In this document: in pieces, positions 889-61,482 of the stretch
How the letters are laid out: every line of letters begins with the position of its first letter
How positions within the stretch are numbered: position 1 is the stretch's first letter
Assembly (NCBI RefSeq): GCF_030684315.1
Contig: NC_081388.1
Location: forward strand, 22,427,015 to 22,491,014
Direction: 5' to 3'
Source: Stegostoma tigrinum
Taxonomy: Eukaryota
Length of the DNA: 64,000 bases
Position numbers and translations under genes: made by a program
The notes under the pieces: generated by a model
The model's input: only the letters and a program-made list of their open reading frames with translations
Database searches by the model: none
Told to the model about the DNA's origin: nothing

Positions 889-918
889 TCATTCGAAAGA
901 CATCAAATTCAGGGGAGG
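889..918 (-). CDS. RALGPS-like last coding exon (PPLNLMSFE*)
   Basis: Acceptor tgtttttgttgcAG, phase 0, TGA stop. Matches the RALGPS1 C-terminus VPANLMSFE. Confidence 0.9.
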   Translation of the reverse strand, partial: PPLNLMSFE

Positions 919-1339
919 CTGCAACAAAAACAACATTAGTGCAAAACAAAAATCGAGTTCGGAATCAGGCACCAGGTCAATGAGAGAAAGCAACCCGAAA
1001 GTGGAGGGGGAGGGGGCGCTGGGGGAGGAAGGAAGGATGGGGAGGGGGCGCTGGGGGAGGAAGGAGAGGCTGGGTTCATTCAGGATGTTACTCCATCAGC
1101 TACCTGAAGGTTGTAAATGCTGCTGCTTTCTAGATAAGAACTTGATCTGAAATTGGATGAATGTGAGGAAGCTCGACAGGGAGACTGCTGTATGACCCTG
1201 GGGTAATATTCCTTCCAGCTAGTATCCCGCTTCTAACAGATACCGGACCAACTACGGAGACAAACTGCAGTTACACAAGCCTCACCATAGCAACAGATGG
1301 AGCACCACACTGTTGCAGGGTCAGTCTTTATTAACATGA

Positions 1340-2440
1340 GATGCAGTTATCACTGGCTGGGCCAGCGTTTAATCTCTAGTTTCTCCTTGAGTGGCGGTGA
1401 GCTAACTCCTTGAGCCGCTGCAGTCCATGTCACATGGATACAACTGCAATTACTTGTTAGGGAAGAAATTCCAGGATTTTAACCCAATGACATTGAAGGA
1501 ACTGGGATATATTTCCAAGTCAGGACGGTGAGTGGCTTGGAGGAAACTTGAAAGGGGGCGGGGGGGGGGGGGGTGTGGGGGGGAGTGTTCCCATGTGTCT
1601 GCTGCCCTTGTCCTTCCAGATGGAAGTTGTTGCGAGTTTGGAAAGTGCTGCCTGAGGACATTTGGTAAATTTCTGCAGTGCACCTTGGAGATGGTACACA
1701 CTGCTGCTAATGAGCGTCGCGGGTGGATGGAGCAGATATTTCTGGATCTAATGCCAATCAAATGGGCTGCTTTATCCTGGATGATGATGAGCTTCTTGAG
1801 TGTTGTTGTGGTTGGACTTATCCAGGAAAATGGGGAGTATTCCATCATGCTCCTGACTTGTGCCTTGTAGATGAACAGACTCTGGGGAGTCATTAAACAA
1901 GTTAGTCGCTGCAGGATTCCTAGCTTCTGACCTGTTTATGTGGCGCGAATGTTACTTGCCACTGGTCAGCCCAAGCTTGGGTATTTTCGAAACCTTGCTG
2001 CATTTGAACACGGACTGCTTCAGTACCTGAGGAGTCGCGAATGGGCCCGAATGTTGTGCAATAAATGGAGAACATCCCCATTTCTGACCTTATGAGGGAG
2101 GGAAGGTCATTGATGAAGCAGCTGAAGATGGTTGGGCCGAGGACACTACCCTGAGGAACTCCTGCAGAGGTGTCCTGGAGTGAGACGACTGACCTCCCAC
2201 AGCCACGACCATCTTCATATGGGTCAGTTTGACTCCAACCACCGGAGCATTTGCTCCCTGTTACGCACTGATTCCAGGTTTGCTCGGGCTCCTTGATGCC
2301 ACACTCGGTCAAATGCAGTGTTGATATCAAGGGCTGTCACGCTTGCCTCACCCTGGATGCAAATATTTTGTCCATGTTTGAACCAAGGCTGTGATGAGGT
2401 CAGAAGCTGAGTGGCCCTGGGGGAACCCAAATGGAGAGTC
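1340..2440 (-). mobile_element. CR1-type LINE 3' fragment (degenerate RT C-terminus)
   Basis: Frameshifted RT peptides ALDINTAFDRVWHQG, GVPQGSVLGPTIFSCFINDLP, WADQWQVTFAP, YKAQVRSMMEY. Boundaries approximate. Confidence 0.85.
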
Positions 2441-2646
2441 AGCACAGAGAGAGCATCACACTGACAGAGGGTCAGCCATGACAGGTGGAGAGAGAAAAAA
2501 TTGACACTAATCTGATCAACTTTTCCCCTGTTAACGACTCGAGGTGCAGGAGTCCTCACTGCAGAGGACCTGACAAACCGAACGCTCCTTCAGAGAAACA
2601 CACACTTGCTTTCAAATCAATTTGTTCTTTATGGGGTAACGCTTAC

Positions 2647-2738
2647 CTGGTTCCTGTTTCTCTCACATGCCCTGCTGAGATGTTTGACCCACAGCATTGC
2701 ATTTAGTCTGCTTCCTGCGTGGAATCGATAGCAATGAC
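2647..2738 (-). CDS. RALGPS-like exon, PH domain end (GHCYRFHAGSRLNAMLWVKHLSRACERNRNQ)
   Basis: 92 bp, cttttttcAG / GTAAGC, phase 1 to 0. Compare RALGPS2 [31 protein letters not shown]. Confidence 0.93.
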
Positions 2739-3716
2739 CTGAAAAAAGACAGAGGGAGAAACGGCCAGACTAACACGTTGTCCTCACACAGACCGGGGAT
2801 CAGACAGCCCAGACCTCTCACAAACCAGGCTCACATACAACTTCAATCCTATGGCTCTCCATAAACCCAACCCATCCACTCTGGGGCCATCAGTCCTGTC
2901 CAAGGAATAGGGCACAAGAGAGCTCTCTTGGTAAAGGAGGTGCACAAGTGACGAAAATAATTGGGAAGCTAACCATGTTCCTTTGGGGTGCATGAGGGAA
3001 ATGGTGCGGTATGAAAAGGTGCTCATTAACTGTTTTCCCCCTCAGGAATTACCCAGGTCCTGGGAAACACCAAAAGGCACATTAAGTTAACGGTGTTGTG
3101 AGGAATTGTAAAGAACATTGTTTAAAAAAGCCGTCTCTCAAAACCCATTCAATATTACCAGTTCCTGCAATGTTCTGTAGTCTGCCTGACCTTTCCTGCA
3201 TTGCTCCTGCTCTCAGTCCTCCTTCCCCATCATCTCCATCACCCCCTCCACTCCCTCCCACCTCTGGTATGGCCCGTCCTCACCTCCTCCACCCCCAATC
3301 CCCCACACAGCTTGACCACACCTCCGTCTCCCTATTCTCCTTTTAGCCACTGCCACTACCAACCCCTTTGCTGACACCCCCTAGTCCCATCCGCCCCACA
3401 CAAACCCCTCCACCGACACCCCCAGGACCCCCTCCCCAGGGTCTATGGTGTCTCTCCCCTGATCTCACACTGTAGCTCTGGGCTCCCTCTGGTGGTGGCA
3501 GCTTGTTGTTGCAGGGTGTCCTGGAACTTCAGCAACTTGCTGCAATGCCTCAACTCTGCCATTAGATGGAGCCTGTACAACCTAATGGGACTGCACAGGC
3601 AAATATATTCCTTACAGAGATAATGGGAACTGCAGATGCTGGAGAATTCCAAGATAACAAAATGTGAGGCTGGATGAACACAGCAGGCCAAGCAGCATCT
3701 CAGGAGCACAAAAGCT

Positions 3717-3744
3717 GACGTTTCGGGCCTAGACCCTTCATCAG
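3717..3744 (-). ncRNA. Minimal type I hammerhead ribozyme core in Penelope pLTR
   Basis: Minus strand reads CTGATGA-AGGGTCTAGGCCC-GAAACGTC: CUGANGA, stem II GGG/CCC, GAAA, palindromic ACGU helix III, GUC site. Confidence 0.7.
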
Positions 3745-5580: not shown

Positions 5581-5608
5581 CTGATGAAGGGTCTAGGCCC
5601 GAAACGTC
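5581..5608 (+). ncRNA. Minimal type I hammerhead ribozyme core in Penelope pLTR
   Basis: CTGATGA AGGGTCTAGGCCC GAAACGTC. Confidence 0.7.
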
Positions 5609-6030: not shown

Positions 6031-6133
6031 CGTGTTCAGAGTCGGAGAGTTGGAAAACGTCGACATCTGGATCATCCATCAGAAAAGGCACCCAACCAAC
6101 AACAGACACTCTCTTACACCAACTCGACTTAAA
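6031..6133 (-). CDS. RALGPS-like exon, PH domain (FKSSWCKRVSVVGWVPFLMDDPDVDVFQLSDSEH)
   Basis: 103 bp, AG / GTGAGT, phase 0 to 1. Lies within ORF 5912..6154. Confidence 0.93.
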
Positions 6134-7645: not shown

Positions 7646-7942
7646 CCAATGGTGAAACTTGAATTCAACAGAAGAATCAGGAATTAAAAGCTGGTTTAAT
7701 GGTTGCCATGTAACCAATGTCAATTGTGGTTAAAAGCCCATCTGGTTCACTAATGTCCTTTAAAGGGGTGCATTCTTTACCACTCTACACGTGTCTCAGA
7801 GCCACACCAATGAGGCTGACTCTGAAATGGCCCAGTGATGTTCAGAAAAGGAGGAGCAAATACCAGGCCAGCCAGTGACAACCACATACCGTGGTCAAAT
7901 AAATCAACCTCTTTCCAGACACTGTCTTTATACAGTACTGAC

Positions 7943-8035
7943 CTGGTTCCTTTCAGCAGATGTCACTGACTTGGCTCCATAATAAAACAGCTGGCTTTCA
8001 CGAAGTACAACCCAATAGGCCGTCCACAGGGAGAC
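7943..8035 (-). CDS. RALGPS-like exon, PH domain (VSLWTAYWVVLRESQLFYYGAKSVTSAERNQ)
   Basis: 93 bp, tctgtccccAG / GTCAGT, phase 0 to 0. Compare [31 protein letters not shown]. Confidence 0.93.
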
Positions 8036-10363: not shown

Positions 10364-10435
10364 CCGCTCGGGCTCCTCACAGCGCTCCACACTGACCTCG
10401 TCACACGGCCCAGGGAGCAGGAGAACCCACTGTTG
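10364..10435 (-). CDS. RALGPS-like linker exon (NSGFSCSLGRVTRSVWSAVRSPS)
   Basis: 72 bp, symmetric phase 2 to 2, tttacttccacAG / GTATGT. Compare RALGPS2 NRLYHSLGPVTRV. Confidence 0.8.
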
Positions 10436-11751: not shown

Positions 11752-11809
11752 CGTTCAAAAGATGAACAAGGTTTTCTCTCTCCAACATCAGAGCTTTCTT
11801 CCTGGGAGG
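11752..11809 (-). CDS. RALGPS-like linker exon (ASQEESSDVGERKPCSSFER)
   Basis: 58 bp, tttcttgttcacAG / GTGAGA, phase 1 to 2 as its neighbours require. Compare GSSDGSELSEETSWPAFER. Confidence 0.8.
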
Positions 11810-13002: not shown

Positions 13003-13121
13003 CCCTCGCCTGCATCACCCACGATGCATCACTTTCCATCTCACTGTCATCGAGGAGATACCGAGGCCAAGAGCCAGGAAACGTGGCACTTCTGTGATTG
13101 CTCGTGTTTGTCTGTCCAGCT
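13003..13121 (-). CDS. RALGPS-like linker exon (AGQTNTSNHRSATFPGSWPRYLLDDSEMESDASWVMQAR)
   Basis: 119 bp, AG / GTGAGT, phase 2 to 1. Compare KSATFPNAGPRHLLDDSVME. Confidence 0.88.
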
Positions 13122-13866: not shown

Positions 13867-13972
13867 TTGTAATCGACACTCCGCCATCTTCGGTGCCCCC
13901 GCGTCAAAGACAGACATGTGACCGAGGCATCACCATGACAACGTTCCGTTTCCTCACTGGGGGAGAGGGAGC
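13867..13972 (-). CDS. RALGPS-like linker exon (GSLSPSEETERCHGDASVTCLSLTRGHRRWRSVDY)
   Basis: 106 bp, ttccttttcctcAG / GTGAGT, phase 1 to 2. Its end matches RALGPS2 GHRKCHSLGYN. Confidence 0.85.
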
Positions 13973-20363: not shown

Positions 20364-20428
20364 CTCGAGAGTCTCGTGTGGAATCCGGATGCTGAGCACA
20401 TGTTGCAGGCTGGATCATCAGAGATCGC
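20364..20428 (-). CDS. RALGPS-like exon (RSLMIQPATCAQHPDSTRDSR)
   Basis: 65 bp, tctttctacAG / GTGAGA, phase 2 to 1. Compare LSLKIEPGTSTPRSAASREDLV. Confidence 0.85.
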
Positions 20429-21139: not shown

Positions 21140-21230
21140 CTGTAGTTGTCCTGCTCCAAGAATCCCTGCAGTTCCTCGATGTATCTCTGGGAATTCAGGT
21201 ATTTCTGCACGTGAGGCAACGTCGGAAGGT
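21140..21230 (-). CDS. RALGPS-like exon, CDC25 end ([30 protein letters not shown])
   Basis: 91 bp, AG / GTTAGT, phase 1 to 2. Close match to [27 protein letters not shown]. Confidence 0.95.
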
Positions 21231-22372: not shown

Positions 22373-22510
22373 CGTATTCACAGAACTGCTGAAAGTCAAA
22401 GATGACACGTAAAACATTATTGATCAGATCACAGCGATGCTTCTTCTCCAAGGTTCCTGTCGACTGTGGAAATGCAGCATCAATGTAGGTGAGGTCGGAC
22501 AAATAAATCC
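22373..22510 (-). CDS. RALGPS-like exon, CDC25 domain (GIYLSDLTYIDAAFPQSTGTLEKKHRCDLINNVLRVIFDFQQFCEY)
   Basis: 138 bp, tcccttccAG / GTAATC, phase 1 to 1. First exon after the ANGPTL-containing intron. Confidence 0.95.
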
Positions 22511-25500
22511 CTGGAAGGGACAAGGAGCCCAGTGTCAGAGATACCAAACTCGAGGGCTCTTTCTGAAATACAAGTCTTTTGATGGTTATTAAATTTCACA
22601 AAGTGAGGGATGGTAAGCTGTTGCATCACAAATGTTTCCTTAACCAGCATCACTGGTACATTAACCAGGTCATTGACTCTTTGTATGTGGGATCTTGTTG
22701 TGCACAAATTGGGAGCTGTCAATGTTAGTATACAAAGATAACTCTTCTTAAAGCTAACTTCATCTCAAGGCAATCCAGAGGTTATGGAAGACGTTACAGA
22801 AATATTTCTTCGTACTTTCCTTCATTTCACACAGGCAGTGTCTGGTCCAGCACAAGTCATCCTGTCACTCAGTAAAACTTTTTTGGTCTTTCTGGGAAAT
22901 ATACACTCGCTTCAGAAAGGCAGCTCCTCCCCAACTGACACCCTCCTTCGGTTTGCTGCACAGTGGTATTGTTGCTGGGCTGTTAATCTAGGGACCCTAC
23001 CCCCCAGAGACCAGGGTTCAAGTCCTGCCAGGGCAGATGGGTTTTGAGTTCAATAAAAATCTGGAATTAGAAGTTTAACGACGACCATCTGGTTCACTAA
23101 TGTCCTTTAGGGAGGAAATCTGCCATCCTTACCTAGTCTGGTCAACATGTGACTCCAGGCCCACAGCAGTGTGGGTTGACTCATAACTGCCCCCTTCTGG
23201 GCAATTAGGGATGGGGGATTAAATGCTGGACTAGCCAGTGACACCCTGGATGATTAAAAAATAAAATCCCACAGGGAGCTGGATCCACATTTGAACATTT
23301 TAATTCGGGAACACACCCCACCCCTCTGAAAGGGCAGGGTGGGGTTACTACACTAACAGTGAGAACTGAATCCTCAACCTGAAAACTACAGAGATCTTTT
23401 AAAATTCATTTCTGAGATGTTAGCATTTATTATCTATCCTCATTTGCCCTTGGGAAGATTTTGGTGAGCCTGTGCGCAGGTACAGCTTCAAAACTTTGTT
23501 CTGTAACAGTGGGATAGAACAGGGTGACTCGCTCAGCGATTTCCGAAAACATTTAAGAGTTAACCACATTGTTGTGTATAGTGATTGACATTGGGCAGGC
23601 CACAAGTGGCAAGTTTCTACCAAGACAGGCTCACTGAATGTAGAGTTGTGTAAAATTTGGCAGTTTCATTACTATGAATAGGATTAACACTATTTCAGGT
23701 TTACCCATTCATTTGAAATTTCCCTAGTTTGAACTCCTCTCTCTAGCGCAGTAGTTTTGAGCCTCTGGACTACTAACCAAGTAATAAGTGCTACCTTACC
23801 ACAATTGTATTAAACTTGGAAACATGACAATTCTGAACTTTTTGAAGGCACGAGATCAAAAGTGAATTCAGACAGTTTCTGAATCTCCTGCAAAACTCCA
23901 GGTCAGAGTGACATAAGCAGGCAGCTCAGCAGTGCATCCTTGAACTAAAATGAGAGCAACTCTGGGTAAATACTGTTAAATATTTCCCACCACTTCTCTG
24001 GGGGGAATGTTCCAGTTCTGCAAACATTCACCAGGGGAGGTAGCAATCAGCTCACCCTGGCTGTCGACCAGTGCCATATCACTTCCTTCCTGTCCCTGCC
24101 CAACCTCCCTCCCCCTCTTCTGAACATAACCCATCTGCTCAAACTCTAAACAACACTGCAGCCTGCTGTGTACTGGGGGAGGTGGGGGCTTGCTGGCCTT
24201 TGTCAAATGATTAAATGATTGGATTTATGTAGCACCATTCACAACCTCAAGACATCCCAATATACTGTATTGAAGTACTTTAGGAGCTAGTCACCCAACA
24301 TGATACTAAGGTGGACACCCAGATCAGCGATTCCCAACAATATCACCCAAGTAAGTGATGTGAAGGAAGTGATGCACATTCCAGGGCCTAACCTGATCAC
24401 CTCAAACTGACTGTTATCAGGGATGGACAATGGGCAGTCCCTCAGCCTGGCCTGGCCGGACACTGCACCCGGAGGCTGCTGGACCTGGACAGCAACCGTA
24501 AACGGAGTCACCCCATCCCTCACCCGATGGTAACGGAGGGTGGTGCAGGTTTCGAGCCAAGGCAGGAACTCAAGTTGGAGTGGACCGAGAGTGAGAAAGT
24601 GTGTCTGCAGGTGTGTGAATGTGTGCAAGAATGTGTGCGAGATCGTGAGAGTGTGTACATGTGGGTGTACAGATGTGCTGGCATGAACGAGAGTGTCCAC
24701 ATATAAGTGTATGTGTGCAGGTGAGTAAATAAATGTGTATGGGTGAGCGAGCGCAAGGGTGAGTGAGCTCATGCAAGAATGTGTAAAAGTGAGGGCGTGA
24801 GAGCAATTACGAGTGTGTTGTGAACCCTGGGCCAAATATGATGCGGGGAAATGGTAGAGATCAGCAATTCTCCACAGTCGAATAAACTCAAAGTCTCAAT
24901 TTCAAATGGATTATATGGTTAACAATGAAAAACAACTGATATCTGTAGACTGCCTTTAAAAGGTGATGAAACTTCCCAAGAATGTTATAAAACAAGGTGC
25001 AACACCAAGCCATCCAAGGAGATATTAGGCCAGGTGACCAAAATCTTGGGCCAATAGGAAGGTTTTACAAGTGTCTGAAAGGAGGAAAGTGACCGAGGGG
25101 TTTAGAAAAGCAACACCAGAGCTTAATACCCAGGCCAGAGCGCATTATAAAGCAACACATTGAACTGGGATTTTTACAGAACATTCCTGCCGGTTCCTGG
25201 GCAGTTTGAGGCCCTCCTGAAAGCTCACCAACAGCTCTGGACGCACTCACTATCTGTAAATCCCTCAGTTCAGTAAATAAACCCGAGATAACTGCTTCAA
25301 AACAACACAATTTAGTGAGCTATTGTTTAAACATTGAGGCCACTGACCCGAATGTATACTTTACAATCCACTCTCACATCCATTTTGGTCATGGTTGACA
25401 AATAGTTGCAGATTTGTTTGTAAAGTGAAGTAACCTCTCTTGTCCTGTAAATGCCTTTTGCTTTCCCAGTTCCCACTGCTTCCCTCTCCTGAAGGTACTG

Positions 25501-26061
25501 GCTTAATAGAGCGGACACACAGAGACACGCTACGGGAATGCAGGCTAATCTTTTCAGTGTCTCAGCTCAGGATAGTTCAGGCCAGTTTTAACACATTAGC
25601 CCAGTCAGGCTAAAATCTCAGCCCAGAGAATAATCGCGCTGGCTCAGCCACTGAAAGAACAGGGGAAGGTCAGCAGTTTTGCTTTGGCAGTATTGCACAG
25701 CAGTGGATCCTCACTCAGCGACTGTGTGTTGGTGTGACAGTCAGCACCATGCTTTGGATATTTTAAACTGCTTTCTCACTTCCTCAACCACTTGGTGTAA
25801 GTCGGTCCTGCTTCAAGCAGGGTCAACACTCACTCCAGGAACTGGGACACAAAATCCAGGCCAACATTGGCAAAGGTGGTGGTGGTGGGGGAGTGCCACA
25901 CTGGTTGAGGTGAAGACTTTCCATCAAGCCATCAAACCGAAACCCTGTCTGGGTTTTCAGGTTAATGAAAAGGTTTCCATTGAACAATTTAAAACGAATA
26001 GCAAAGTTCCTCCCAGAGACCTGGTCAACATTTATCCCTCAATCAACATCACAAAAAACAT

Positions 26062-26188
26062 CAGAGATAATGGGAACTGCAGATGCTGGAGAATCCAAGA
26101 TAATAAAGTGTGAAGCTGGATGAACACAGCAGGCCAAGCAGCATCCCAGGAGCACAAAAGCTGACATTTCGGGCCTAGACCCTTCATC
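26062..26188 (-). mobile_element. Solo Penelope pLTR fragment
   Basis: Near-identical to 3616-3742; truncated inside the CUGAUGA box. Confidence 0.8.
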
Positions 26189-39218: not shown

Positions 39219-40661
39219 TAGCAACCATCCATTCAAACTTACTCTGAGCCACAACTGCTGGGATTCCAAACACCAAACGGGGGCCGCAGATTGAATGGCA
39301 AAGGTGGGACAGATTTCAAGGAGAGAGGAGAGAGATTTAAAACAGTCCCGAGGGGCAACATTTTCCACACACAGAGGGTGGTTCGTGAGGGAGTGGAGGT
39401 GGTTTACAACATCTAAAAAGACAGCTGGATGGATAGATGAATAGGTGGGTGTTTAAGAGGGATATGGGCCAAGCACAAGCAAATGGGAGGTCGTCAGATT
39501 GGGATGTCTGCTTGGTGCAGACGAGTTGGATTGAAGGGTTTGTTCCTGTGCTGTATGGCTATGATTCTGTAGCTGAAGGAGGGTGAAGGGGAGGGAAAAA
39601 CACAAAAATTGTATAGCAACGGGTTGGGGGCCCTCACCTCATGTATGGTTCTGATGCAGGCTCATTGATACAGATTGGTCAATAACGCTCTTATGAGGTT
39701 ATGTGCTCCCAGGGCCACTGCAGCCTAAGGCTGGTCTGAATCCATCGAGAATTCCCATTTCCCAAGGGATACAAGAACAAAGAGACATGATAGATACAAG
39801 CAAGGAAAGTGGCCGCTGTAACAGCCAGGGAGACACAGACACACCTCCTGTCATCTCTGGCCAGTGAAGGTCATCTCCCTTACCCCAAACCCCACCTCCC
39901 ACATCCTGCCACTTTCCTCTCTCGGCTCCTATTTCACACACAGTCTGAAAGGCACAGGTCCAGTTCCCCAATGGGGATGGTGAACCCCAACACTGCTACA
40001 CTGAATCTTAATCCAGTTTCATCAAACCTGGATTTAGCACAGCGATCACAAAGACTGCTGGGAAATGATGAGCATCCGATACAGAGAACCCAGTGGAACC
40101 ACATCCAGTAACAGGGAGACGGGTAGAACCAGGGCCAACTTAAACTCTAAGCCCCCCTCCCAGCCTTACTCAGACACCATCCCGCAGCCATTCAAGGGGC
40201 AGGTTTATTTCAAAGGTAAAGTTCAAACAAATGTCTGAAGATCAGATGAAAGATTGAAATGTGTTGCAAAAGAAGGCAGGAGTTAAAAGAAGGGGCAGGA
40301 CTGTCCTGTGGGGCTGGGAGCATTCTCTGACCTTTCGATAATTGCCACTCATCTCAGATAAAAGCAAGTTCCTGCCAGCAGCGAATAGACTCATTTTCTG
40401 TGATAATAGTGTCTTGCAGTGATGGTCTTTTAAAAAAAAGAGGTCAATACAACAAAGCCGTGCCCACAGCTTTAATAACATAGCAACCACTGACAATAAA
40501 CACATGAACTGGAGCACAGTTTATCGAGAAAAAGTCTCCCTCCCATTTAAGGCAAAGCCATCGAGCTGTACAGCACAGGAATAGACCCTTCAGTCCAACC
40601 AGATAGCCTAAATAAATCGAGTTCCATTTGCCAGCATTTGGCCCACATCCCTCTAAACCCT

Positions 40662-40747
40662 GATAATAAAATGTGAGGCTGGATGAACACAGCAGGCCAA
40701 GCAGCATCTCAGGAGCACAAAAGCTGACGTTTCGGGCCTAGACCCTG
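40662..40747 (-). mobile_element. 86-bp Penelope pLTR fragment inserted into a CR1 tail, with an 8-bp TSD
   Basis: TAAACCCT at 40654-40661 and 40748-40755. The uninterrupted host sequence is visible at 6935-6960. Confidence 0.85.
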
Positions 40748-41782
40748 TAAACCCTTCCTATTCATGCACCCATCCAGACAGCTTTTAAATGTTGTAATTG
40801 TACCAGCCTCCACCACTTCCTCTGGCAGCTCATTCCACCACCCTCAGATAGAGACTGCCACAAACAGATTGGCTATGATCTTCTTGATCCTTATCTTCTC
40901 TGATTGAGTGTGACCACTCAAGCTCAAGCACAGGTCACACAATGGTGAAATAGAGCCCACATCAGCACTGGTTAGTCCAGGACAGGGTGTCAGCTTGGCC
41001 TGGGTCAGATTAGCTGAGCCTACAGCAGTACCCACTCTGGTCCTGAGCTATGAGAGCCCAGTGAAGGACAAAAGGAATGCAGCACTGTCAGAAGGGCTGC
41101 ATTTCCATTGAAAGGCTGCTTCATGTTGAGCTGGAAGTGAAAGATCAGGGACTAGGAACACCAGGTTCTAGTTAATATCCTTCTGTCGGTCACCAAACAC
41201 TGAATAACTATTGATCCCTACCATTGACACTCCTGGGATCATGCTCTGCGTGAAATGACGGCATCCACCCGTAAGACTGTAGGAGCAGCAGTAGGCCATT
41301 CAGCCCATTGTATGCACTGCTATTCAATGGCTGATCTGATAATCATCAGGTAGACATTCCTGTCTCTTTCTTTGATTGCTTTACTCATTAAAAATCTCAC
41401 TATCTCAACCTCGACAGCCTCCTGCAGTAAAGAATTCCAGACTCACTCCCCTCGGAGAAGAAGAAATTCCTCCACATCTATCTCGGATGGGAAACTCCCA
41501 GGTTGTGCTCTGCCCCACAAGGGCAAACAACTGCAAACCGTCACTAACTCCATTTCTAACCCAGTAAATCTTGTTTACAGAGGGAGGTTTATTTTCACGT
41601 TTTGTCAAATCAAAGGCCTGGCATCAGCTTGCTCCCTCTGATGGGTGTACTGGGGTCAGGGACAGAAATGGTTTTATTCTCAGCAGCAATATCCTGGGAC
41701 TGAGCATCAGAATAACAAACGCACAGGGCCGGCTGGGAGGGAAGGGGCCCATGGGGTTACCGTGTGATTTTTTTTTGACCAG

Positions 41783-41976
41783 GTCCCTGGAAAGATTGTC
41801 TCCAGGCTTTGGAAGATGGTCATCAATCCAATGGGATCTACTTAATCAAACCAACCACTATTAGCCGGCTGATGCAGGTCTGGTGTGAACATGAGGAAGG
41901 TCCAGGTGGCTGGACTGTCATCCAGAGACGACAAGATGGCTCGGTCAATTTCTTCAGGAGCTGGGAGAGTTACAAG
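41783..41976 (+). CDS. ANGPTL6: ANGPTL6-like coding exon 3: fibrinogen domain start (GPWKDCLQALEDG...GGWTVIQRRQDGSVNFFRSWESYK)
   Basis: 194 bp, tttttttgaccAG / GTGAGT, phase 1 to 0. Not in the ORF track; translated by hand. Confidence 0.95.
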
Positions 41977-42198
41977 GTGAGTATGTGAAGTCAGTGCATC
42001 AGCTGGCTAACACTCCACCCTCAAGTTCACTTTTGGTCCATCTGTCTCCACTCCCCTCACCTATTCCCATATCAGCCCAGGGCCTAGTGTACAGGGGGCA
42101 CCGTCAACTTACTGGGCACTATATACCCAACCTCTCTCCCAGGCCCTGTTCACACCATAGGAGATACTGGAGAAACTCAGCAGGTATGGGGGTGGGGA

Positions 42199-42293
42199 GG
42201 AGAGACAGAGAGAGAGAGACAGAGAGAGAGAGACAGAGAGAGAGAGACAGAGAGAGAGAGACAGAGAGAGAGAGACAGAGAGAGAGAGACAGA
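42199..42293 (+). repeat. (GAGAGACA)n microsatellite
   Basis: Visible directly in the sequence. Confidence 0.9.
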
Positions 42294-42501
42294 AAAAAGG
42301 TTAATATTTCAAGCCCAGAATGACCTTCTTTGGAACCAAGTTATTGGATTCACAATATTAACTGTTTCTCACTGCACCGATGCTGCCAGATCTGCTGAGT
42401 TTCTCCAATACTTGTTTCGGTTTCAATGTACTTGCTTTTCAATGACTATTCGCTGACACACAGACACACAGAGTAAATGTTGCCTGGATTCTTATCTGCA
42501 G

Positions 42502-42772
42502 CAAGGTTTTGGGAACATTGATGGTGAATACTGGCTGGGTTTGGAGAACATCTACTGGCTGACCAATCAGGATAACTACAAGCTGCGAATCCTAATGGAT
42601 GATTGGCAAGGCAGGAGAGTGTTTGCAGAGTACGACGATTTCCGTGTGGAAGCAGAGGGAGACTTCTACAGGTTGCGGTTAGGCCATTACCACGGGAATG
42701 CCGGAGATTCCTTCTCCTGGCACAACGGCAAGCAGTTCACCACCCTGGACAGGGATCGGGATCTGTACTCAG
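42502..42772 (+). CDS. ANGPTL6: ANGPTL6-like coding exon 4: fibrinogen domain (QGFGNIDGEYWLGLENIY...FTTLDRDRDLYS)
   Basis: 271 bp, ctgcAG / GTAGGA, phase 0 to 1. Confidence 0.95.
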
Positions 42773-42861
42773 GTAGGACTGTTTCCTCGGCGTTACCCTG
42801 CAATGGTCAATCGGGTTAATGAAGGGTTTTCCTCATTACTGTCAGTGTGTTTCCTTCCAAG

Positions 42862-43058
42862 GTAACTGTGCCCACTACCAGAAAGGAGGCTGGTGGTATT
42901 ACACCTGCGCCCACTCAAATCTGAATGGAGTGTGGTATAAAGGAGGTCACTACCGCAGCAAGTACCAGGATGGTGTTTACTGGGCAGAATTCCGCGGTGG
43001 GGCCTACTCTTTGAAGAGAGTGGTGATGATGATATGTCCAAACCAGATACTGCTGTAA
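42862..43058 (+). CDS. ANGPTL6: ANGPTL6-like coding exon 5 (GNCAHYQKGGWWY...EFRGGAYSLKRVVMMICPNQILL*)
   Basis: 197 bp after an 89-bp intron; TAA stop at 43056-43058. Confidence 0.95.
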
Positions 43059-44059
43059 TCTATACTCTCTGCTTTACAACCAGAACTCGTGTCACATTTC
43101 CCACATGTTAGCATCAGCCATCTTTTAATCACAATTTCACATATCGTGTTACACAATCACTATTGTATAAGCAAAGTTTCAGACAACAGAACTACCTACT
43201 TAGAGTATAATATGGCTTGATGGGCTTAAAGCAGACCCAAAGCTGTTTCTTCTGTTCTGTAGTTCAGACTGAATGGTCCTGAGGACAATAATGATGTTGG
43301 TTAAGGGACAGAGCTCATAATATTCACCAGATCCCATTCCAGCCTCTCGTGTCGCCTCCCCCCTCCCCTCCCTCCCTCCTGCAGGGATCCTCGTAGAAGT
43401 TACTCTAGACAAGAAACAAACCAAACTATTCTAATATCACTCAATTTAATACAACAGTTCAGTGCATCCCAGGTGTTTAAAAAATAGCTGCTGTGTCTTT
43501 TCAGTGAATTGTAGAAATTAAAATTTCATGAAAAGCAGCAGCTATCTTAGAAATGTCAGGATAATGAGAAACTAAAATGCCTTATTTCCTGGTTCACAGA
43601 GACAGACAGAACTATGCACACACTGTCAGGGTGCAAGAAGCAAATTGGATGGTCTTCATGCAGGTTAAAGTGAACACAGCTGCCAAAGCAGAGGACTGCT
43701 CCCCAGTCCCACACTGACTGGGGTCACTGAGGTGTGAGGTGAGAGTGGTACATGGAGGGGCACCCTCTGTGGGTTGGCAGGGGGTGAGGGGTTTATATGA
43801 TTGGTGGTTTTACCCTGTAGACAGATTTGCTACACCTCCCTCCATGTGTCTGATGTGGAGACTGGGTGTGCAATGACAGAACGGGTCTTGTTCTCTGGGC
43901 CAGCATCCCACGCCTCAAACACCAAAAGACAAGTCCCCAGGACAGATGAACAGAACATTACGGTAAACATCTACAACCAACACATGGGGCTGATTTCAAA
44001 CCCATAACCTCTGTGGGATGTCAGTGGGGACAATTATCTGAAATTAAATATTGGCATCA

Positions 44060-44425
44060 CATCCACAAGCATCCACTACCGATGCTCAGTGCACACTGCG
44101 GTTACTATCTACATGGTGCACAGTAGAAATTCACCAAAGATCCTCAGGCAGCACCTTCCAAACCCATACCTGCTTCCATCTAGAAGGACCAGGGGCAGCA
44201 GACACACAGGAACACCACCCCCTGCAAGTTCCCCTCCGAGGCACTCACCATCCTGACTTGGAAATATATCACCGTTCCTTGTGTTGCTGGGTCAAAATTG
44301 TGGAATCCCTCCCTAACAGCATTGTGGGTCATCCCACAGCACACGGACTGCCTTTTCAAGGGGCAACTAGGGACAGGCAATACGTGCTGGCTCAGCCAGT
44401 GATGCCCACGTCCCCCAGAGTGAAT
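44060..44425 (+). mobile_element. CR1-type LINE 3' fragment, same family as 1340-2440 (also 54185-54470 and 57590-57855)
   Basis: Shared CAGCACCTTCCAAAC..CTTCCATCTAGAAGGAC..GCAGCAGACAC; ORF 57648 contains GVPQGSVLSP. Confidence 0.75.
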
Positions 44426-47200
44426 TAGAAAAAATTAGCAACACAGGAATAGTGGGAAGCCATTCAGGCCTGCGACCTGTTCTTGTGTCCAATGAGATTG
44501 TAGCTGATGGATAACCCAAATTCCACACGCCCCTCAAGGCCCTCCCCAAAGCAACCTTCATCAGTCTGAGTTTTGACTTGAGACTACAGCCTCAGCAGCT
44601 TTCTGTGAAGGACAGCTCGAGATTTATACTGCCTGTGTGTCAGGCAGTGCTTCCTGTCATCACCAGTTAATTATGCAGGCTTGAATTTTAAAATTCTGTC
44701 CCCTGTCCTGCTCCAGCCCACCCCCACCCCCACCACAACACAGCCTCAGGAGGAGGTCATTTCTATCCTGACCCGATCAGATCTTTGAATGCTATTAAAC
44801 ACTTTAACTACACCACCTCTTCATCTTCTATGCTCAGGAGATACATGTCCAAGTCCATATCATTTATCTTCAATTTTAACTTTTTTTTAAAATATCTCCA
44901 GTATGACTTCAGTCAGTTAACCATTAGTGTCTGTATTCAGAATCCTGGTACTTACAATCCACAATCTAGGGCTTCACAGGGTATATACAACACATACAGG
45001 CCATTCAGCCCAACCACTGAAGGCTGGCACTGATGATCTCCTCAACCCTGCTCCAAATCTCAGTGTAACTCTCTACCCGCCTCTCCCTCAAACATTCCTT
45101 TAGTTCCATTAAATAAATCAGTGTTATTCACTCCAATCTCTCCCTATGGGAGTAGGTTCCACATTCTCACCTCTGTCCAAGTGGACTTCTTGGCGAATAT
45201 CATACCGACTTCCTCCAATTCTGTTCTTTCCCACAAGAGGAATATTTTATGTTTTAAAACCTTTAATGATTTTTAAGGACCTTCATTAGGTCACCTTCTG
45301 TTTTCAAGGAGAGAATTGGCCGCTGTCAATCGTTTCCTGATGTACTCACTCATGTTTCTGGTTTCATGCTTAGAAACATCCAGGGCACCCTCTCCAGTGC
45401 CTCTACGTACACTTTATAAAAATGACAACCAGAACTGCACATGGTACTCTCTGCACTCCCTGCATTCCTCCACTTCACACTTTTCCCACTGTACACTCCT
45501 CAGCCTGACCTGGCTCAAACAGACAGCAACGCTGGCTCTTGTACCTCCTGAACAGGCCAGCAGGAGGCGATCACAATTCAGCTTGCAGTGGTTCATCATT
45601 TCCAACCCGTCCCTCTTCTCATGAGTAATGAAATTCACCGAGACCATCATTCTGTGTGGGAACCCATCAGAACAATCAAATTCCCTAGGTTAGATCATTT
45701 TCTTTAAACTAAACATGGCCCTGCTATTTCCTAGAAAACTGACCCTGAACTAGATGCATTCTCATCGTAGATATGAATCCATTAACTCTATGTTTTTGCT
45801 TACACTTCTGAGCGCTAGAAAAACCACTGTAAATATCAGAATAAATAAACCACTTTCTGCTGTAATATACTATAGTTCCATTGTGGATCAGTGAGATATT
45901 GGATAGTCTTAGTGTATGTGTTGACCACAGCGTCCAAATCAACACAGAGTCCATTTTGGGTAAAATCAGAACTACATGGAGAGAGAAACAGCTTCCAGTC
46001 ACTGCTCACTGTCACACCCAATTGCTCATCATTGGAAAGAGCGGGTTGGATTTTCATTCAATCTCAGGATAGCGGGAATTAAAGAGCAGAAAAAAGCGCT
46101 GGGTTTTGGGAGGAGATGTGCAAATAAATATAAAAGATGCAGGAGCAGACTGAGACAGTCACCACTTTATATGCACCGTCCACCGTCCACCGTCAGCCAA
46201 ATCCCTATCATCAGTTCTCTCTGCGCTTGTGAATTACGTGATGCCTCTCTGTCGATTGGCATGAATCCTCCTTCAAAGACAATGTGGAGTTTTAAACTTT
46301 TATTGATGTCCCTCGCACCATTCTGTATCAGAATCTGGAAGATGCCATGCTGCTGATTGCAGCCAGGGTGAAGGGGTGGTCAATGTTGTCCATGAACTGG
46401 AAGACCCTCACAGCAGGAAATGTGACTGCTCCACCTTATTCCCATCATTTCTCCACAGATCTTAAACTAAACCGTATGGCCAACATTACAATGTGGAAAT
46501 AATAAACTAACTAATTGTGGATGAGAAGATTGTTAGTTATTAGGAACCTCCCACTAAGAGTTTCAAAGCTGGTCATTTCTTTGACTCATTGAAGACTTTC
46601 ACACATCAGTAAAATTGATGTAACGAAGTTTAGATAAAATACCATCTCCAAATTAAAACTGTTCACCAGTGTTCTGTCCCTCTGTTTTAACTCCAAGGTT
46701 TCTGACGCATAACACGCTCATAACAATTGCAGTTTCCCTCAGACAACTCTCCTGTGTGCAACATTAGAGATGGATCACTGCAGTTGTGTATCACTGAGGC
46801 AGAGAGGGTCAACTTGAAAAATCAGACACCCTTCGCTTCTAAAGAAATCTCAGCGATGTTGTTTCATAGGTGGATCACCTGCACATCCTCCTGCCTCAAA
46901 ACAGAAGTTTTTTTAAAAAAAAAGTTTCTAACACACCAAGCACAATCCCAACAAAGCAGGATTCGCACCACTGCTATTTCAGAGCTGATTTCACTATTTC
47001 CTAGTGACCCCAGAGTTCATGTTAGAATCCTGCAGCAAAAGGTAAAAAACAATGCATGGGCATCAGATCAAAGTGGGGTGAGACCCCTCATTCCCTGGGG
47101 TCAAAAGATGGGATTGTAGGCAACAATACTGAAACGTGTGATGATAGCAGTTGCTGAGCACCCAGCCTCCCTGCAAAAGATAGGAGGAGATTCAACTCAC

Positions 47201-47327
47201 CTAAATATGGAACACACGGAGTTTCCTTCAAACAGTTGATGTAATCTCGGAGCTCTTTATAGTTGTTGTCGCTGGACATCAGAGTCTGCAGCTTTTCAAA
47301 CACAGCCTTATCTTTCCTGCTCAACAG
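47201..47327 (-). CDS. RALGPS-like exon, CDC25 domain ([42 protein letters not shown])
   Basis: 127 bp, TAG / GTGAGT, phase 0 to 1. Contains the conserved P-x-[VI]-PYLG motif. Confidence 0.95.
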
Positions 47328-48919: not shown

Positions 48920-49012
48920 CGCCCACGTTTTTGACAATCTGAACACTGGAGTGCTCTGTAATGCTGAAACGACTGCCATCAACCCATGAAGATTATGGAG
49001 ACCCTGAAGTTT
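48920..49012 (-). CDS. RALGPS-like exon, CDC25 domain ([31 protein letters not shown])
   Basis: 93 bp, tttcttttgcAG / GTAGGT, phase 0 to 0. Confidence 0.95.
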
Positions 49013-49258: not shown

Positions 49259-49348
49259 CTTGGCAATTTTGATAAAATGCCCAACAACTTCCACTCTTCG
49301 TTTCAGTGTCTGTTTGGTGAGAATCTCCTGGATGACCCAGAAACTGAC
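49259..49348 (-). CDS. RALGPS-like exon, CDC25 domain ([30 protein letters not shown])
   Basis: 90 bp, ttttttttccAG / GTGAGT, phase 0 to 0. Confidence 0.95.
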
Positions 49349-49980: not shown

Positions 49981-50064
49981 CTGGTTAAATCTCCGGGTAA
50001 AAGCACCCACATTGGGAGCCAAAGCGTGTTTTTGTTTCTTGTTCCAACGGCAATCAGACAATTC
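49981..50064 (-). CDS. RALGPS-like exon, CDC25 domain ([28 protein letters not shown])
   Basis: 84 bp, AG / GTAGAA, phase 0 to 0. Compare [28 protein letters not shown]. Confidence 0.95.
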
Positions 50065-56123: not shown

Positions 56124-56174
56124 CTGGCATCGAATGGCTCTGAAGATCGGAATGTCAAGTTGGGTGAGTTGACT
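56124..56174 (-). CDS. RALGPS-like exon, CDC25 domain (SQLTQLDIPIFRAIRCQ)
   Basis: 51 bp, ttccttttcAG / GTAGGA, phase 0 to 0. Compare SQITLMDIPVFKAIQPE. Confidence 0.92.
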
Positions 56175-57436: not shown

Positions 57437-58495
57437 AATTAAAAAGGGGAACAGCTCAACCCTCCTCACCTGGGATTTAACTATGGCGGGGGGGGGGGGG
57501 GTATCTTGTCTGGAAACTGTGTGAATTGGGGGGACTCTCACCGCTTTATAATAGATGGTGCCTGGCACTGTGCGAATGTCACTTTCCACGTGTCAGCCCA
57601 AACCTGTGTATTGTCCAGGTCTTGCTGCATTTTCTCATGGGCTCCATCTAACATGGAGTACCTAAGAAGTTGCGAATGGTGCTGAACCTTGTGCAATCAT
57701 CGGGGAACATCCTCATTTCTGACCTTATGATGGAGGGAAGGTCATTGATGAAGCAGCTGGAGGAGGTTGGGCTGAGGACACTACCCTGAGGAACTCCTGC
57801 AGAGATCTCTTGGAGCTGCGATGACTGACCTCCAACAACCACGACCATCTTCAATGGCAGTCAATACACCCTGAAGCTGTGGAAGGTGCTACAGAAATCC
57901 AAACTAAAACTCAATGACAAAGTTAAACATTTGAAAAAAACCGTCATCCAAAACACTGGGGGTGGCTTTCCCCAGTGGGGATCTGAAGCCATTTTTCTTC
58001 ACCCACTTTGTACAACAGACCCCTTCAGTCAGGAAAAGTTTCCCCAATCCCGCCACCTCCCTTCAACTGTCCTGTGTTGGCTCCTGCCTACTCTTTTGCA
58101 TCTTGTTAGTGAGAGTTTGGTGGACACCCTGTGAGCTTTGTGCCTGCGGGGGTGGAACTCACTCATGTGATCCTGACCCACAGGAATGTCCACGGAGCTC
58201 GCTGGACGTTGGGCACTTTTCCCTCCTGATCAGATGGCAAAGTTCATTTGAAATGAGCTACCGCCGACCCAGAGCACAGATTCAGAATAAAATTACCTAT
58301 CTACTGCCCCTACAACAGTCAACACAACCTCTGGGGGAAACGGAGACACCAAGCTTCAAATTCATTCTTTGCAATTTGACCATCTCACAGCTCACGGCTC
58401 CAGGCTCAGAGCTCCATTATAAAATCAAGGCCCTCAATTTACTGACCTCTACCCGTCCCACCTCCATTCTTCTTCCTTCCTCATGTTCTACTCAC

Positions 58496-58591
58496 CGCAA
58501 ATTCTTCTGGAGTCACCGTGAGAATGTCAAATACAGCAGCATCAAAGTGCAGGTCACAGGACCCTCTCTGCAAGGAGGTAGCAGCTAGATT
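58496..58591 (-). CDS. RALGPS-like exon (NLAATSLQRGSCDLHFDAAVFDILTVTPEEFA)
   Basis: 96 bp, ctctttctgcAG / GTGAGT. Compare YDAVVFDVLKVTPEEFA. Confidence 0.92.
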
Positions 58592-59494
58592 CTGCAGAAA
58601 GAGGTAAAATCTCAGCTCAGAAACAGACTGTGGCTCAGCACGGATATTTTGGTCAGTGACATTGATGGCTTGGACACTAAGTGCAGCTCAGTTCACTCAC
58701 ACACCCGGGCTTTTCAACTTCCCTGAACTTCTAATGGACATTAGTCACTGTTTTCAAAAGTGTAGGATATGCAGCCATTAATGCAAAGCAAGATCCCACA
58801 GTGTTTTCAGATGTTGCTGGAGGGATCCTTAGCCAGGATACTGGGGACTACCCACACACGGCTCTGGACCCACCTCTCTCACACTGGCCTTGTTCTTCTC
58901 CGCTGCTTAGGCCTGAGAGTTGCACAGTAACTCCTTCTCAAGTACCTTCTCGCTCATTTGAAACGAACCTGCTCAGAACCTCAGACAGGGAATTAGAGGC
59001 TTACATCCCAGGTGTAGGCCACAGAGTCCATGGTACCTCTGCTGGAGTTATTGTCTCCAAATCCCTGCTCCGATTTCACCATGTCAGAAGCACATGTTCA
59101 AATCCCTTTCCTCCACTTGCAGCATTCCCAATCCCAACTCCTAGCAAAAACACAATTCCTCTGAAGATCTATCACCAACCACTTGGAATCCAGCAGTTTT
59201 GGTCATTGACCCTCAATGGGTAACAGATTCACTTCTTCTGTCAAAACTTGGGAAAAACATCCAGAAGGTGCTCACTTATTAACCTTCCCTGACCCTTCTT
59301 CACCTTGATCCTTCCACCCTCTTCTCAGGCCTTAAGTACTGGTAACTCTCCTTGGTGACACAAGTCCTTCAATCTATCCCAGGGTTTCTTAAGTTTATAG
59401 CAGCCTCTTTAGGAAGGTTCTTCATTTGTCTATCAGCACAGAGGAGTGTGTTCTGCTACCACCCTCTGTCCAACATAGGAATTTCACCAGGTAA

Positions 59495-60787: not shown

Positions 60788-60797
60788 CCTTCCTAAA
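60788..60797 (-). CDS. Putative 10-nt microexon of the RALGPS-like gene (TTTAGGAAGG)
   Basis: Strong acceptor tgtgtttcttttacAG and donor AGG/GTAAGG 10 nt apart. Phase 2 to 0 bridges the candidate start exon to exon 58591. Confidence 0.35.
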
Positions 60798-61046
60798 CTG
60801 TAAAAGAAACACAATCTGACCCTTTCTTGGTACCCACATAATACAGCAACTACACAGCTACCCAGCAGGGCATTCTCTAGCCTTTAATCCCAGTCGCAGG
60901 AAGCACCATCATGAACATCCCAGAGGCCTGGTCTTAGCTCTCTACCGGGAGATAAGGATAAAAAGGCCTTCCCAGGCTGTATTTCCCATCTGGGGTCAGT
61001 AAAACTCTCATCTCAGCCAGATCATGGGTTCAAGCTTCACCACAGG

Positions 61047-61055
61047 GCGCGCGCG

Positions 61056-61102
<47 letters not shown>
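61047..61102. repeat. (GC)n(AC)n alternating purine-pyrimidine tract
   Basis: About 9 GC units followed by about 19 AC units. Confidence 0.9.
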
Positions 61103-61104
<2 letters not shown>

Positions 61105-61423
61105 TGAGTGATTAGTGCAATATCAATGTTGTGTTCCAGATGTGAGGTTATTAAGGGTCCTGTGGTAACATTCAAAAAGAAACAGGGGCACTTTGTTTTG
61201 TAAAAGGGCGGGGGGGGGGGCAAGCAGTGCTGTGGAGACATTCTCAAGTCTATATTCACCCTCACATATTCCAACAAATAAGTCATGAAATGACTTAACT
61301 GTACAGCCTGTGGGATCTTGCTGTGCATAAAGTGACTGCTGCATTTCTCAGAATTCCTGCGGTGAACATTTTAAGAGGTGTTGCAGCGCATATGGAGGTG
61401 CTAGTTAAATGCAAGCTCTTCAC

Positions 61424-61482
61424 CTGCAGGTCCCAGCACAGCCTGAACACAGAAAGCTGGAAGGAGAACTCATTAACTGCAT
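61424..61482 (-). CDS. Putative first coding exon of the RALGPS-like gene (MQLMSSPSSFLCSGCAGTC)
   Basis: MQLM start resembles RALGPS2 MDLMNG; 59 coding nt; acceptor upstream near 61503; donor CAG/GTGAAG in phase 2, which needs the microexon to stay in frame. Confidence 0.4.

What the first reader, a model, noticed from the sequence alone, without database searches (positions are those of the whole stretch)
889..61482. Candidate third vertebrate RALGPS ohnolog, intact but strongly diverged
Seen: 18 exons with canonical splice sites and no stop or frameshift, giving a full CDC25 + PH protein. Known: mammals have two genes, RALGPS1 and RALGPS2, both well conserved. This protein differs from both at positions they share (CRWNKKQK for CGWxKKEK, IRCQ for IQPE/D, HRCDLINNVL for QRSNxMNNIL). 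It also mixes RALGPS1-like (EEFA, RRFNQ, NLMSFE) and RALGPS2-like (LSDLTYID, QLFYY, NAMLW) residues. Inference: a separate whole-genome-duplication paralog kept in cartilaginous fish, which automated annotation would probably label RALGPS1-like or RALGPS2-like.
Basis: partly seen in the sequence, partly recalled or inferred. Interest (0 to 1): 0.85.

Follow-up and report, generated by a model that had tools for sequence, protein, structure and literature searches.

The report
Third RALGPS gene hosting shark ANGPTL6
This shark DNA holds an intact, fast-evolving third copy of a cell-signalling gene (RALGPS), found here only in sharks and rays, that likely dates from the second early-vertebrate genome doubling, lacks the docking motif that gives the family its name, and carries a second gene, likely ANGPTL6, backwards inside one intron.

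Summary
Confirmed, with corrections. The minus strand holds an intact RALGPS gene of 19 exons (not 18), 61700-889 (not 61482), 549 aa, all introns GT-AG. The genome has separate RALGPS2 (C10) and RALGPS1 (C37) loci. Trees put the gene with nine other shark and ray proteins (100/100), outside the jawed-vertebrate RALGPS2 clade and sister to it (96/91); a shark-only duplicate of RALGPS2 is rejected (p-AU 0.001). An ANGPTL1/2/6-type gene lies antisense in intron 7, as at both paralogues, beside PPAN, EIF3G and DNMT1, the ANGPTL6 block. This fits a second-round (beta) ohnologue likely lost in bony vertebrates; that loss is not proven. The Cdc25 core is largely kept, but the linker PxxP motif is absent (0 of 13, against 229 of 231 in RALGPS1/2). 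Public databases call it 'RalGPS1-like' or 'RalGPS2-like', and my searches found no paper on it. This scan already noted it in a bamboo shark (e1-7788845). New member of a known kind.

The parts
61647..61700 (-). RALGPS3 coding exon 1 (start ATG at 61700)
   Evidence: 15 of 18 residues identical to P0001; donor GTAGGA
58496..58591 (-). RALGPS3 exon 2 (start of Cdc25 region)
56124..56174 (-). RALGPS3 exon 3
49981..50064 (-). RALGPS3 exon 4
49259..49348 (-). RALGPS3 exon 5
48920..49012 (-). RALGPS3 exon 6
47201..47327 (-). RALGPS3 exon 7 (first half of the helical-hairpin motif; phase-1 donor of the host intron)
22511..47200 (-). Intron 7 (24,690 bp), host intron of the nested ANGPTL gene; the same intron holds an ANGPTL gene at the C10 and C37 paralogues
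37392..38030 (+). Nested ANGPTL (likely ANGPTL6) coding exon A: signal-peptide-like start and coiled-coil region
   Evidence: 55-56% identical to both own-genome paralogues over about 150 aa
38289..38478 (+). Nested ANGPTL linker exon B, set off by an intron that the C10 and C37 paralogues lack
41783..41976 (+). Nested ANGPTL exon C (start of fibrinogen domain)
42502..42772 (+). Nested ANGPTL exon D (fibrinogen domain)
   Evidence: Pfam Fibrinogen_C E 2.6e-27; best PDB hits ANGPTL2 then ANGPTL6
42862..43058 (+). Nested ANGPTL exon E with stop; the whole frame is 496 aa and open
22373..22510 (-). RALGPS3 exon 8 (second half of the helical-hairpin motif)
21140..21230 (-). RALGPS3 exon 9
20364..20428 (-). 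RALGPS3 exon 10 (end of Cdc25 region)
13867..13972 (-). RALGPS3 exon 11; at about 13931-13884 a Cys/Leu-plus-basic stretch stands where RALGPS1/2 have the PxxP motif
13003..13121 (-). RALGPS3 exon 12 (linker)
11752..11809 (-). RALGPS3 exon 13 (linker)
10364..10435 (-). RALGPS3 exon 14 (linker)
   Evidence: same exon in public model P0426
9323..9410 (-). RALGPS3 exon 15 (start of PH domain with its basic cluster)
7943..8035 (-). RALGPS3 exon 16 (PH)
6031..6133 (-). RALGPS3 exon 17 (PH)
2647..2738 (-). RALGPS3 exon 18 (PH)
889..918 (-). RALGPS3 exon 19 with the family's C-terminal motif and TGA stop

Best explanation
The window holds an intact third RALGPS gene with an ANGPTL gene nested antisense in intron 7; it is likely the beta-type sister of RALGPS2 from the second vertebrate genome duplication, kept in sharks and rays, and it likely still works as a Ras-independent Ral exchange factor that lacks the SH3-binding motif. 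Shown: the gene structure, three RALGPS loci each with an antisense ANGPTL in the same intron, the neighbours PPAN, EIF3G and DNMT1, the tree position, the much faster rate, and the missing PxxP. Inferred history: one RALGPS gene already holding an ANGPTL was doubled into the RALGPS1/ANGPTL2 line and the RALGPS2/ANGPTL1 line; the second round split the latter into RALGPS2/ANGPTL1 and RALGPS3/ANGPTL6; bony vertebrates then lost the host and kept ANGPTL6 as a free-standing gene. Inferred mechanism (untested, about 0.7): the PH domain binds membrane phosphoinositides and the Cdc25 domain releases GDP from RalA/RalB, without SH3-adaptor docking.
For: Three loci: C10 11.58-11.84 Mb, C37 29.12-29.62 Mb and this one. 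Each has an antisense ANGPTL1/2/6-type gene in the phase-1 intron within the hairpin motif; human ANGPTL1 is in RALGPS2 and ANGPTL2 in RALGPS1 (PMC6371847, passages). Neighbours on C45: PPAN about 10 kb left of the window (E 3e-26), a P2Y-type receptor, EIF3G at about 64 kb and DNMT1 at about 97 kb; angptl6-eif3g-dnmt1 is a conserved vertebrate block (PMC6976628, passages). Dynamin genes lie on the same three contigs. Tree of 41 rows: third clade 100/100, RALGPS2 clade of 14 jawed vertebrates 100/99 without it, the two together 96/91; 99/98 when invertebrates are left out (20 rows). The skate chromosome table gives linkage group M a 1-alpha (LER10), 1-beta (LER39) and 2-alpha (LER31) copy and no 2-beta, with Ralgps2 on LER10, Ralgps1 on LER31 and Dnmt1/Eif3g on LER39 (PMC10115646 supplement), which predicts this topology. 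Beta segments evolve faster and lose more genes (same paper, passages); Cdc25 identity of this gene to its Heptranchias and Pristis orthologues is 78% and 74%, against 99% and 100% for RALGPS2. Function: the window keeps 82 of 92 near-invariant Cdc25 columns against 95 of 157 others (Fisher p 7e-7) and 24 of 29 in PH; best PDB matches are the RALGPS1 Cdc25 (E 3e-101) and PH domains. PxxP before the HRK anchor: 0 of 13 third-paralogue proteins, 109 of 111 RALGPS2, 120 of 120 RALGPS1, and present in this shark's own RALGPS1 and RALGPS2.
Against: A tree with the third clade outside RALGPS1+RALGPS2+cyclostomes is not rejected (p-AU 0.055), and the third clade has a long stem (0.49). No amphioxus row was in the tree, RALGPS1 sampling outside mammals was partial, and cyclostome placement is unresolved. 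The nested gene's fibrinogen domain is closer to ANGPTL2 than to ANGPTL1 (118 against 100 of 153 columns) and scores higher to human ANGPTL2 than to human ANGPTL6 (164 against 119 bits), so the name ANGPTL6 rests on synteny, not on similarity or a tree. Loss in bony vertebrates is not shown: only 120 of 2081 hits and 150 cluster representatives were listed, and a fast-evolving bony copy could rank lower. Ten near-invariant Cdc25 columns differ in this protein. No exchange assay and no RNA from this species exist here.
Confidence: 0.86

Rival explanations
1. The gene is an older paralogue that split off before RALGPS1 and RALGPS2 separated, and only appears next to RALGPS2.
For: The constraint RALGPS1+RALGPS2+cyclostomes is not rejected (p-AU 0.055); long stem; six RALGPS1-like residues are ancestral states.
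Against: RALGPS2+third has 96/91 and 99/98; RALGPS1+RALGPS2 without cyclostomes is rejected (p 0.015); long-branch pull would draw the gene towards the outgroup, yet it groups with RALGPS2; the chromosome assignment in the skate table makes the DNMT1/EIF3G chromosome the 1-beta sister of the RALGPS2 chromosome.
Confidence: 0.05
2. It is a duplicate of RALGPS2 (or RALGPS1) made only in cartilaginous fish, moved to a new chromosome and then accelerated.
For: So far seen only in sharks and rays; closer to RALGPS2 than to RALGPS1 (69% against 64% in Cdc25).
Against: AU tests reject third+cartilaginous RALGPS2 (p 0.0012; 0.02), third+elasmobranch RALGPS2 (0.0009) and third+own RALGPS1 (0.0002). The gene sits in the PPAN-EIF3G-DNMT1 block around an ANGPTL gene at the place where bony vertebrates have ANGPTL6.
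Confidence: 0.02
3. The origin is as in the best reading, but the gene is on its way out: under relaxed selection, weak or dead as an exchange factor, and kept partly because deleting it would disturb the nested ANGPTL gene.
For: Far faster change than RALGPS2; PxxP lost; three public models lack the PH domain (Rhincodon P0001, Heterodontus P0002, Mustelus P0160); bony vertebrates appear to do without it.
Against: Open frame here and full-length proteins in sharks and rays that split about 286 million years ago (date from PMC10115646); selective keeping of invariant columns; the Rhincodon truncation matches read-through into intron 15, which looks like an annotation fault; a skate gene 'Ralgps2-1' that is probably this paralogue has fin RNA-seq counts (baseMean 47).
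Confidence: 0.07

Closest known systems
RALGPS2 (host of ANGPTL1) of jawed vertebrates
   Same: Cdc25 + linker + C-terminal PH layout, no REM or RA domain found by Pfam, same host intron with an antisense ANGPTL, hairpin motif nearly identical, sister in the tree
   Different: 66-69% identical in Cdc25 and about 30% in the linker; no PxxP; far faster rate; gene span 61 kb against at least 261 kb; other chromosome and neighbours
RALGPS1 (host of ANGPTL2)
   Same: Same domains and host intron; best PDB matches 3QXL and 2DTC; shares some ancestral residues
   Different: 64-65% identical in Cdc25; grouping with RALGPS1 rejected (p-AU 0.03); no PxxP; span 61 kb against at least 498 kb
ANGPTL6 of bony vertebrates
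   Same: ANGPTL1/2/6-type protein beside EIF3G and DNMT1; five coding exons, with one intron that the two paralogues here lack, as I recall for human ANGPTL6 (recalled, no call)
   Different: Still nested in a RALGPS host; slow-evolving and more similar to ANGPTL2 than to human ANGPTL6; PMC5237311 (passages) did not find angptl6 in elephant shark or little skate
Ohnologues kept in cartilaginous fish and lost in bony vertebrates (19 cases in PMC10115646, e.g. wnt6b and cspg5 are named among the retained set)
   Same: Same kind of history, on a fast-evolving beta segment
   Different: RALGPS is not named in that paper's main text; the gene list was not in the supplement sheet that I could read, so it may be on it

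Membership tests
[quoted passage not shown] | Cdc25/RasGEF catalytic domain closest to RalGPS | tested here: met
   Pfam PF00617 E 5e-55; PDB RALGPS1 E 3e-101 against 2e-36 for the next GEF
[quoted passage not shown] | C-terminal PH domain | tested here: met
   PF00169 E 6e-7 over the cut-off; PDB 2DTC E 2e-38
[quoted passage not shown] | No REM and no Ras-association domain | tested here: met
   Only RasGEF and PH reported; feature taken from bioRxiv 10.1101/2020.05.26.086140, one passage
[quoted passage not shown] | Proline-rich PxxP (SH3-binding) motif in the linker | tested here: not met
   0 of 13 anchored third-paralogue proteins. The strict motif is also patchy outside jawed vertebrates (3 of 7), so this bars the name 'SH3-binding' for this member, not descent from the family
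[quoted passage not shown] | Nucleotide exchange on RalA/RalB | not testable with these tools
   No assay; conservation of the core only
RALGPS2 orthologues | Nested inside the jawed-vertebrate RALGPS2 clade | tested here: not met
   RALGPS2 clade 100/99 without it; AU p 0.0012; true RALGPS2 on C10
RALGPS1 orthologues | Nested inside or sister to the RALGPS1 clade | tested here: not met
   AU p 0.03 and 0.0002; true RALGPS1 on C37
2R ohnologues | Duplication older than the cartilaginous/bony split | tested here: met
   Sister to a clade that holds both cartilaginous and bony RALGPS2
2R ohnologues | Copies on paralogous chromosome segments | tested here: met
   RALGPS, ANGPTL and dynamin trios on C10, C37 and C45; three families only
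2R ohnologues | Duplication younger than the split from invertebrate chordates | tested here: inconclusive
   All vertebrate rows form one side against a tunicate and four other invertebrates (100/99), but no amphioxus row, and cyclostome positions are unresolved
ANGPTL6 orthologues (nested gene) | Position in the angptl6-eif3g-dnmt1 block | tested here: met
   PMC6976628
ANGPTL6 orthologues (nested gene) | Groups with bony-vertebrate ANGPTL6 in a tree | not tested
   No named ANGPTL proteins were fetched; raw similarity favours ANGPTL2

The most novel reading that the evidence does not exclude
RALGPS3 is a re-tooled Ral activator: at the exact place of the SH3-docking PxxP it gained a conserved cysteine-plus-basic stretch (at least one Cys just before the HRK anchor in 13 of 13 proteins) that would act as a lipid-modified membrane anchor, so that sharks and rays have an adaptor-independent Ral switch that bony vertebrates discarded while keeping its intronic guest ANGPTL6.
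Probability: 0.13. Interest if true: 0.68.

Novelty: new member of a known kind. Interest (0 to 1): 0.48.

Why it matters
It completes a gene trio. Human ANGPTL1 and ANGPTL2 sit inside RALGPS2 and RALGPS1, while ANGPTL6 has no such host that I know of; the shark locus indicates that all three were once nested and that ANGPTL6 outlived its host. It dates the gene-in-gene arrangement to before both vertebrate genome duplications and supplies a cartilaginous-fish ANGPTL6 that an earlier family survey did not find. It also offers a natural RalGPS without the SH3-binding motif, a ready comparison for a motif whose role is little known. The class of finding (an ohnologue kept in sharks, lost in bony vertebrates) is known, and the proteins already sit in databases under '-like' names, so surprise is moderate.

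Tried and rejected
RNA: no RNA holder listed for window 7900-14000, so exon junctions were not checked in reads. Two DNA contig runs laid on 800-20700 show pieces over exons 10-19 and, among the rows shown, differences only in introns and repeats (66 rows not shown); they may be the source of the assembly and are not counted as support. dN/dS was not computed: no orthologous coding DNA could be fetched. The first exon (about 59082-59022) and extra exon (about 57888-57630) of public model P0426 were rejected: neither is in the other orthologues, and the extra exon lies in LINE-like sequence by eye. A genome search with the Brix family rang nowhere; PPAN was found by ORF scan instead. The third homologue search returned only mammalian RALGPS1 in its 120 listed rows, so non-mammalian RALGPS1 came from partial proteins and own-genome exons. 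No amphioxus protein was identified among the 30 look-ups. Atlas searches added nothing decisive. No complex with Ral was predicted, as no Ral sequence was held. The sign of the skate fin fold-change was not interpreted, because anterior and posterior markers had the same sign in that table. Literature: 'ralgps3' 0 papers; ralgps+elasmobranch 2 papers, unrelated by title; searches listed none on a third RALGPS (listings only). Supplements not seen that may bear on novelty: the skate paper's list of 68 ohnologues (large PDFs unreadable), 12 of 24 whale-shark files, and the catshark supplement.
Full report
Observation. A homologue search with exon 8 returned four shark proteins named RalGPS1-like or RalGPS2-like, the best 98% identical. 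Mapping these onto the window and reading the splice sites gives 19 exons from 61700 to 889, 549 aa, no internal stop, 18 of 18 introns GT-AG. A public automated model labelled zebra shark 'RalGPS2-like' (P0426) is identical from exon 2 on, apart from one extra exon, so the window is likely from that carpet shark or a close relative, and the gene is already in databases under a '-like' name.

Three loci. Searches of the own genome with a RALGPS2-type and a RALGPS1 protein find exon sets on three contigs only: C10 (11.58-11.84 Mb), C37 (29.12-29.62 Mb) and C45, this window (the second search used a stricter first look, so weak matches may be missing). The C10 exons are 98-100% identical to other shark RALGPS2 in the two domains and the C37 exons 85-88% to lemur RALGPS1, whereas the window protein is 69% and 64% identical to them in the Cdc25 region.

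Intron 7 (24,690 bp) holds, on the plus strand, a five-exon, 496-aa open ANGPTL1/2/6-type gene. Its two closest own-genome matches lie antisense within the same intron of the C10 and C37 genes, and that intron has the same phase-1 position in all three. In humans ANGPTL1 is inside RALGPS2 and ANGPTL2 inside RALGPS1 (PMC6371847, passages). Left of the window come PPAN, a P2Y-type receptor (best PDB match P2Y1; P2RY11 by position, recalled), EIF3G and DNMT1. PMC6976628 (passages) names angptl6-eif3g-dnmt1 as a block conserved in vertebrates. The nested gene is therefore likely ANGPTL6. Against this, its fibrinogen domain is more similar to ANGPTL2 than to ANGPTL1 or human ANGPTL6; PMC5237311 (passages) reports ANGPTL6 as one of the most divergent members between fish and human, which would explain that, and did not find it in elephant shark or little skate. 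I built no ANGPTL tree. Dynamin genes also fall on C10, C37 and C45.

Tree. With 41 rows and 556 columns (IQ-TREE, LG+C20 PMSF), the window protein groups with nine shark and ray proteins (100/100); 14 RALGPS2 rows from chimaera to mammal form a clade without them (100/99); the two are sisters (96/91); RALGPS1 (8 rows) is apart (100/99); cyclostomes are unresolved. With 20 rows and no invertebrates the sister link is 99/98. Holding the third clade with cartilaginous RALGPS2 is rejected (p-AU 0.0012). A faster test on the two domains (31 of 41 rows; ten short or redundant rows dropped; 375 columns; JTT+G4) gives p-AU 0.65 for third+RALGPS2, 0.02 with cartilaginous RALGPS2, 0.0009 with elasmobranch RALGPS2, 0.03 with RALGPS1, 0.0002 with the own RALGPS1, 0.015 for RALGPS1+RALGPS2, and 0.055 for RALGPS1+RALGPS2+cyclostomes, the one rival not rejected.

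Fit to the genome-duplication map. The little-skate paper's chromosome table lists for linkage group M a 1-alpha copy (LER10), a 1-beta copy (LER39) and a 2-alpha copy (LER31), with 2-beta missing (PMC10115646, supplement file 2). Its tables put Ralgps2 on LER10, Ralgps1 on LER31, and Dnmt1 and Eif3g on LER39. Three copies, with the third sister to RALGPS2, is what this predicts. The paper states that beta segments lose more genes and evolve faster, and counts 19 ohnologues kept only in cartilaginous fish (passages). The third RALGPS is indeed fast: Cdc25 identity to Heptranchias is 78% against 99% for RALGPS2, and to Pristis 74% against 100%.

Range. Named proteins of the third type came from 14 shark and ray species; nine of them plus the window were in the tree. 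No bony-vertebrate or chimaera protein of this type was among the 120 listed of 2081 hits, and among the 150 best representatives the only further one closer to the third paralogue than to RALGPS1/2 was from a shark. Humans have six RalGEF genes with only two RalGPS (PMC4858283, passages). Loss in all bony vertebrates is likely but not shown.

How it likely works. RalGPS proteins are Ras-independent Ral activators whose PH domain targets membranes and is needed for Ral activation, with a PxxP stretch bound by SH3 proteins (bioRxiv 10.1101/2020.05.26.086140, one passage; PMC8699646, passages). The window protein keeps 82 of 92 near-invariant Cdc25 columns against 95 of 157 other columns (p 7e-7), and 24 of 29 in the PH domain. 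The stretch that aligns with the SOS helical hairpin (its catalytic role is recalled) is nearly identical to RALGPS2, and the basic cluster at the start of the PH domain is kept. Ten invariant Cdc25 columns differ, several only in carpet sharks. The PxxP is gone: 0 of 13 anchored third-paralogue proteins (1 of 14 had no anchor), against 109 of 111 RALGPS2 (2 of 113 unanchored) and 120 of 120 mammalian RALGPS1, and it is present in this shark's own two paralogues. In its place all 13 carry a Leu-rich stretch with at least one Cys before a basic run. I commit to a membrane-recruited Ral exchange factor without SH3 docking (about 0.7; inferred, no assay). That the cysteines form a lipid anchor is a guess (0.13). 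Expression is not shown for this species; a skate gene that is probably this paralogue has fin RNA-seq counts (placement inferred from id neighbours).

Novelty. 'ralgps3' occurs in no paper of the library; other searches listed none on a third RALGPS (listings only). The skate paper does not name RALGPS in its main text, but its list of retained ohnologues was not readable, and other shark-genome supplements were partly or wholly unseen. This scan noted the same arrangement earlier in a bamboo shark (e1-7788845); I had reached the reading before seeing that note, and I did not check the bamboo-shark locus itself. Verdict: a real, intact, apparently undescribed third RALGPS ohnologue with a nested likely ANGPTL6; new member of a known kind; interest 0.48.

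Noticed in passing
G000 C10 about 19-30 Mb, C13 about 69-87 Mb, C12 and many small contigs; L057, L058: Very large expansion of RasGEF-domain exons (679 candidates, 150 scored), on C10 in a roughly regular tandem array, many with a TAA in the matched stretch. Two copies tested match RGL2/RalGDS-type GEFs best. Unrelated to this finding but may deserve its own look.
   Followed up: partly
PMC10115646 supplement, gene LE16245: A skate gene labelled 'Ralgps2-1' has an id among Olfm2, Swsap1, S1pr2 and Dnmt1 and appears in fin RNA-seq (baseMean 47); 'Angptl2-2' (LE16465) has an id next to Ppan. Probably the third RALGPS and its nested gene; placement inferred from id neighbours only.
   Followed up: partly
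G000 C45:17.85-17.92 Mb: Two tandem copies of an SHFL-family (PF15135) gene, 4.5 Mb from the window on the same contig.
   Followed up: no
L038-L039 (G000 C45 about 22.56 Mb): Adenylate-kinase-domain exons about 65-75 kb right of the window (Pfam ADK); AK5-like by my recall, possibly another retained ohnologue.
   Followed up: partly
window 62844-63999: CpG-rich tandem repeat of roughly 25-35 bp units upstream of the RALGPS3 start; a GC-rich stretch at about 62550-62780 may hold the promoter or a non-coding first exon.
   Followed up: no
window 3600-5700 and 16000-20000: High-copy retroelement remnants in introns 17 and 10, with reverse-transcriptase-like frames (17816-19117, RVT_1 E 2e-5, under the cut-off).
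   Followed up: no
window 57630-57888 and 59022-59082: Public model P0426 uses an extra exon and another first exon here that other orthologues lack; likely annotation artefacts.
   Followed up: partly
L026 (G000 C45 about 22.368-22.378 Mb): About 9 kb of low-complexity, strand-biased repeat between EIF3G and the P2Y-type receptor.
   Followed up: no
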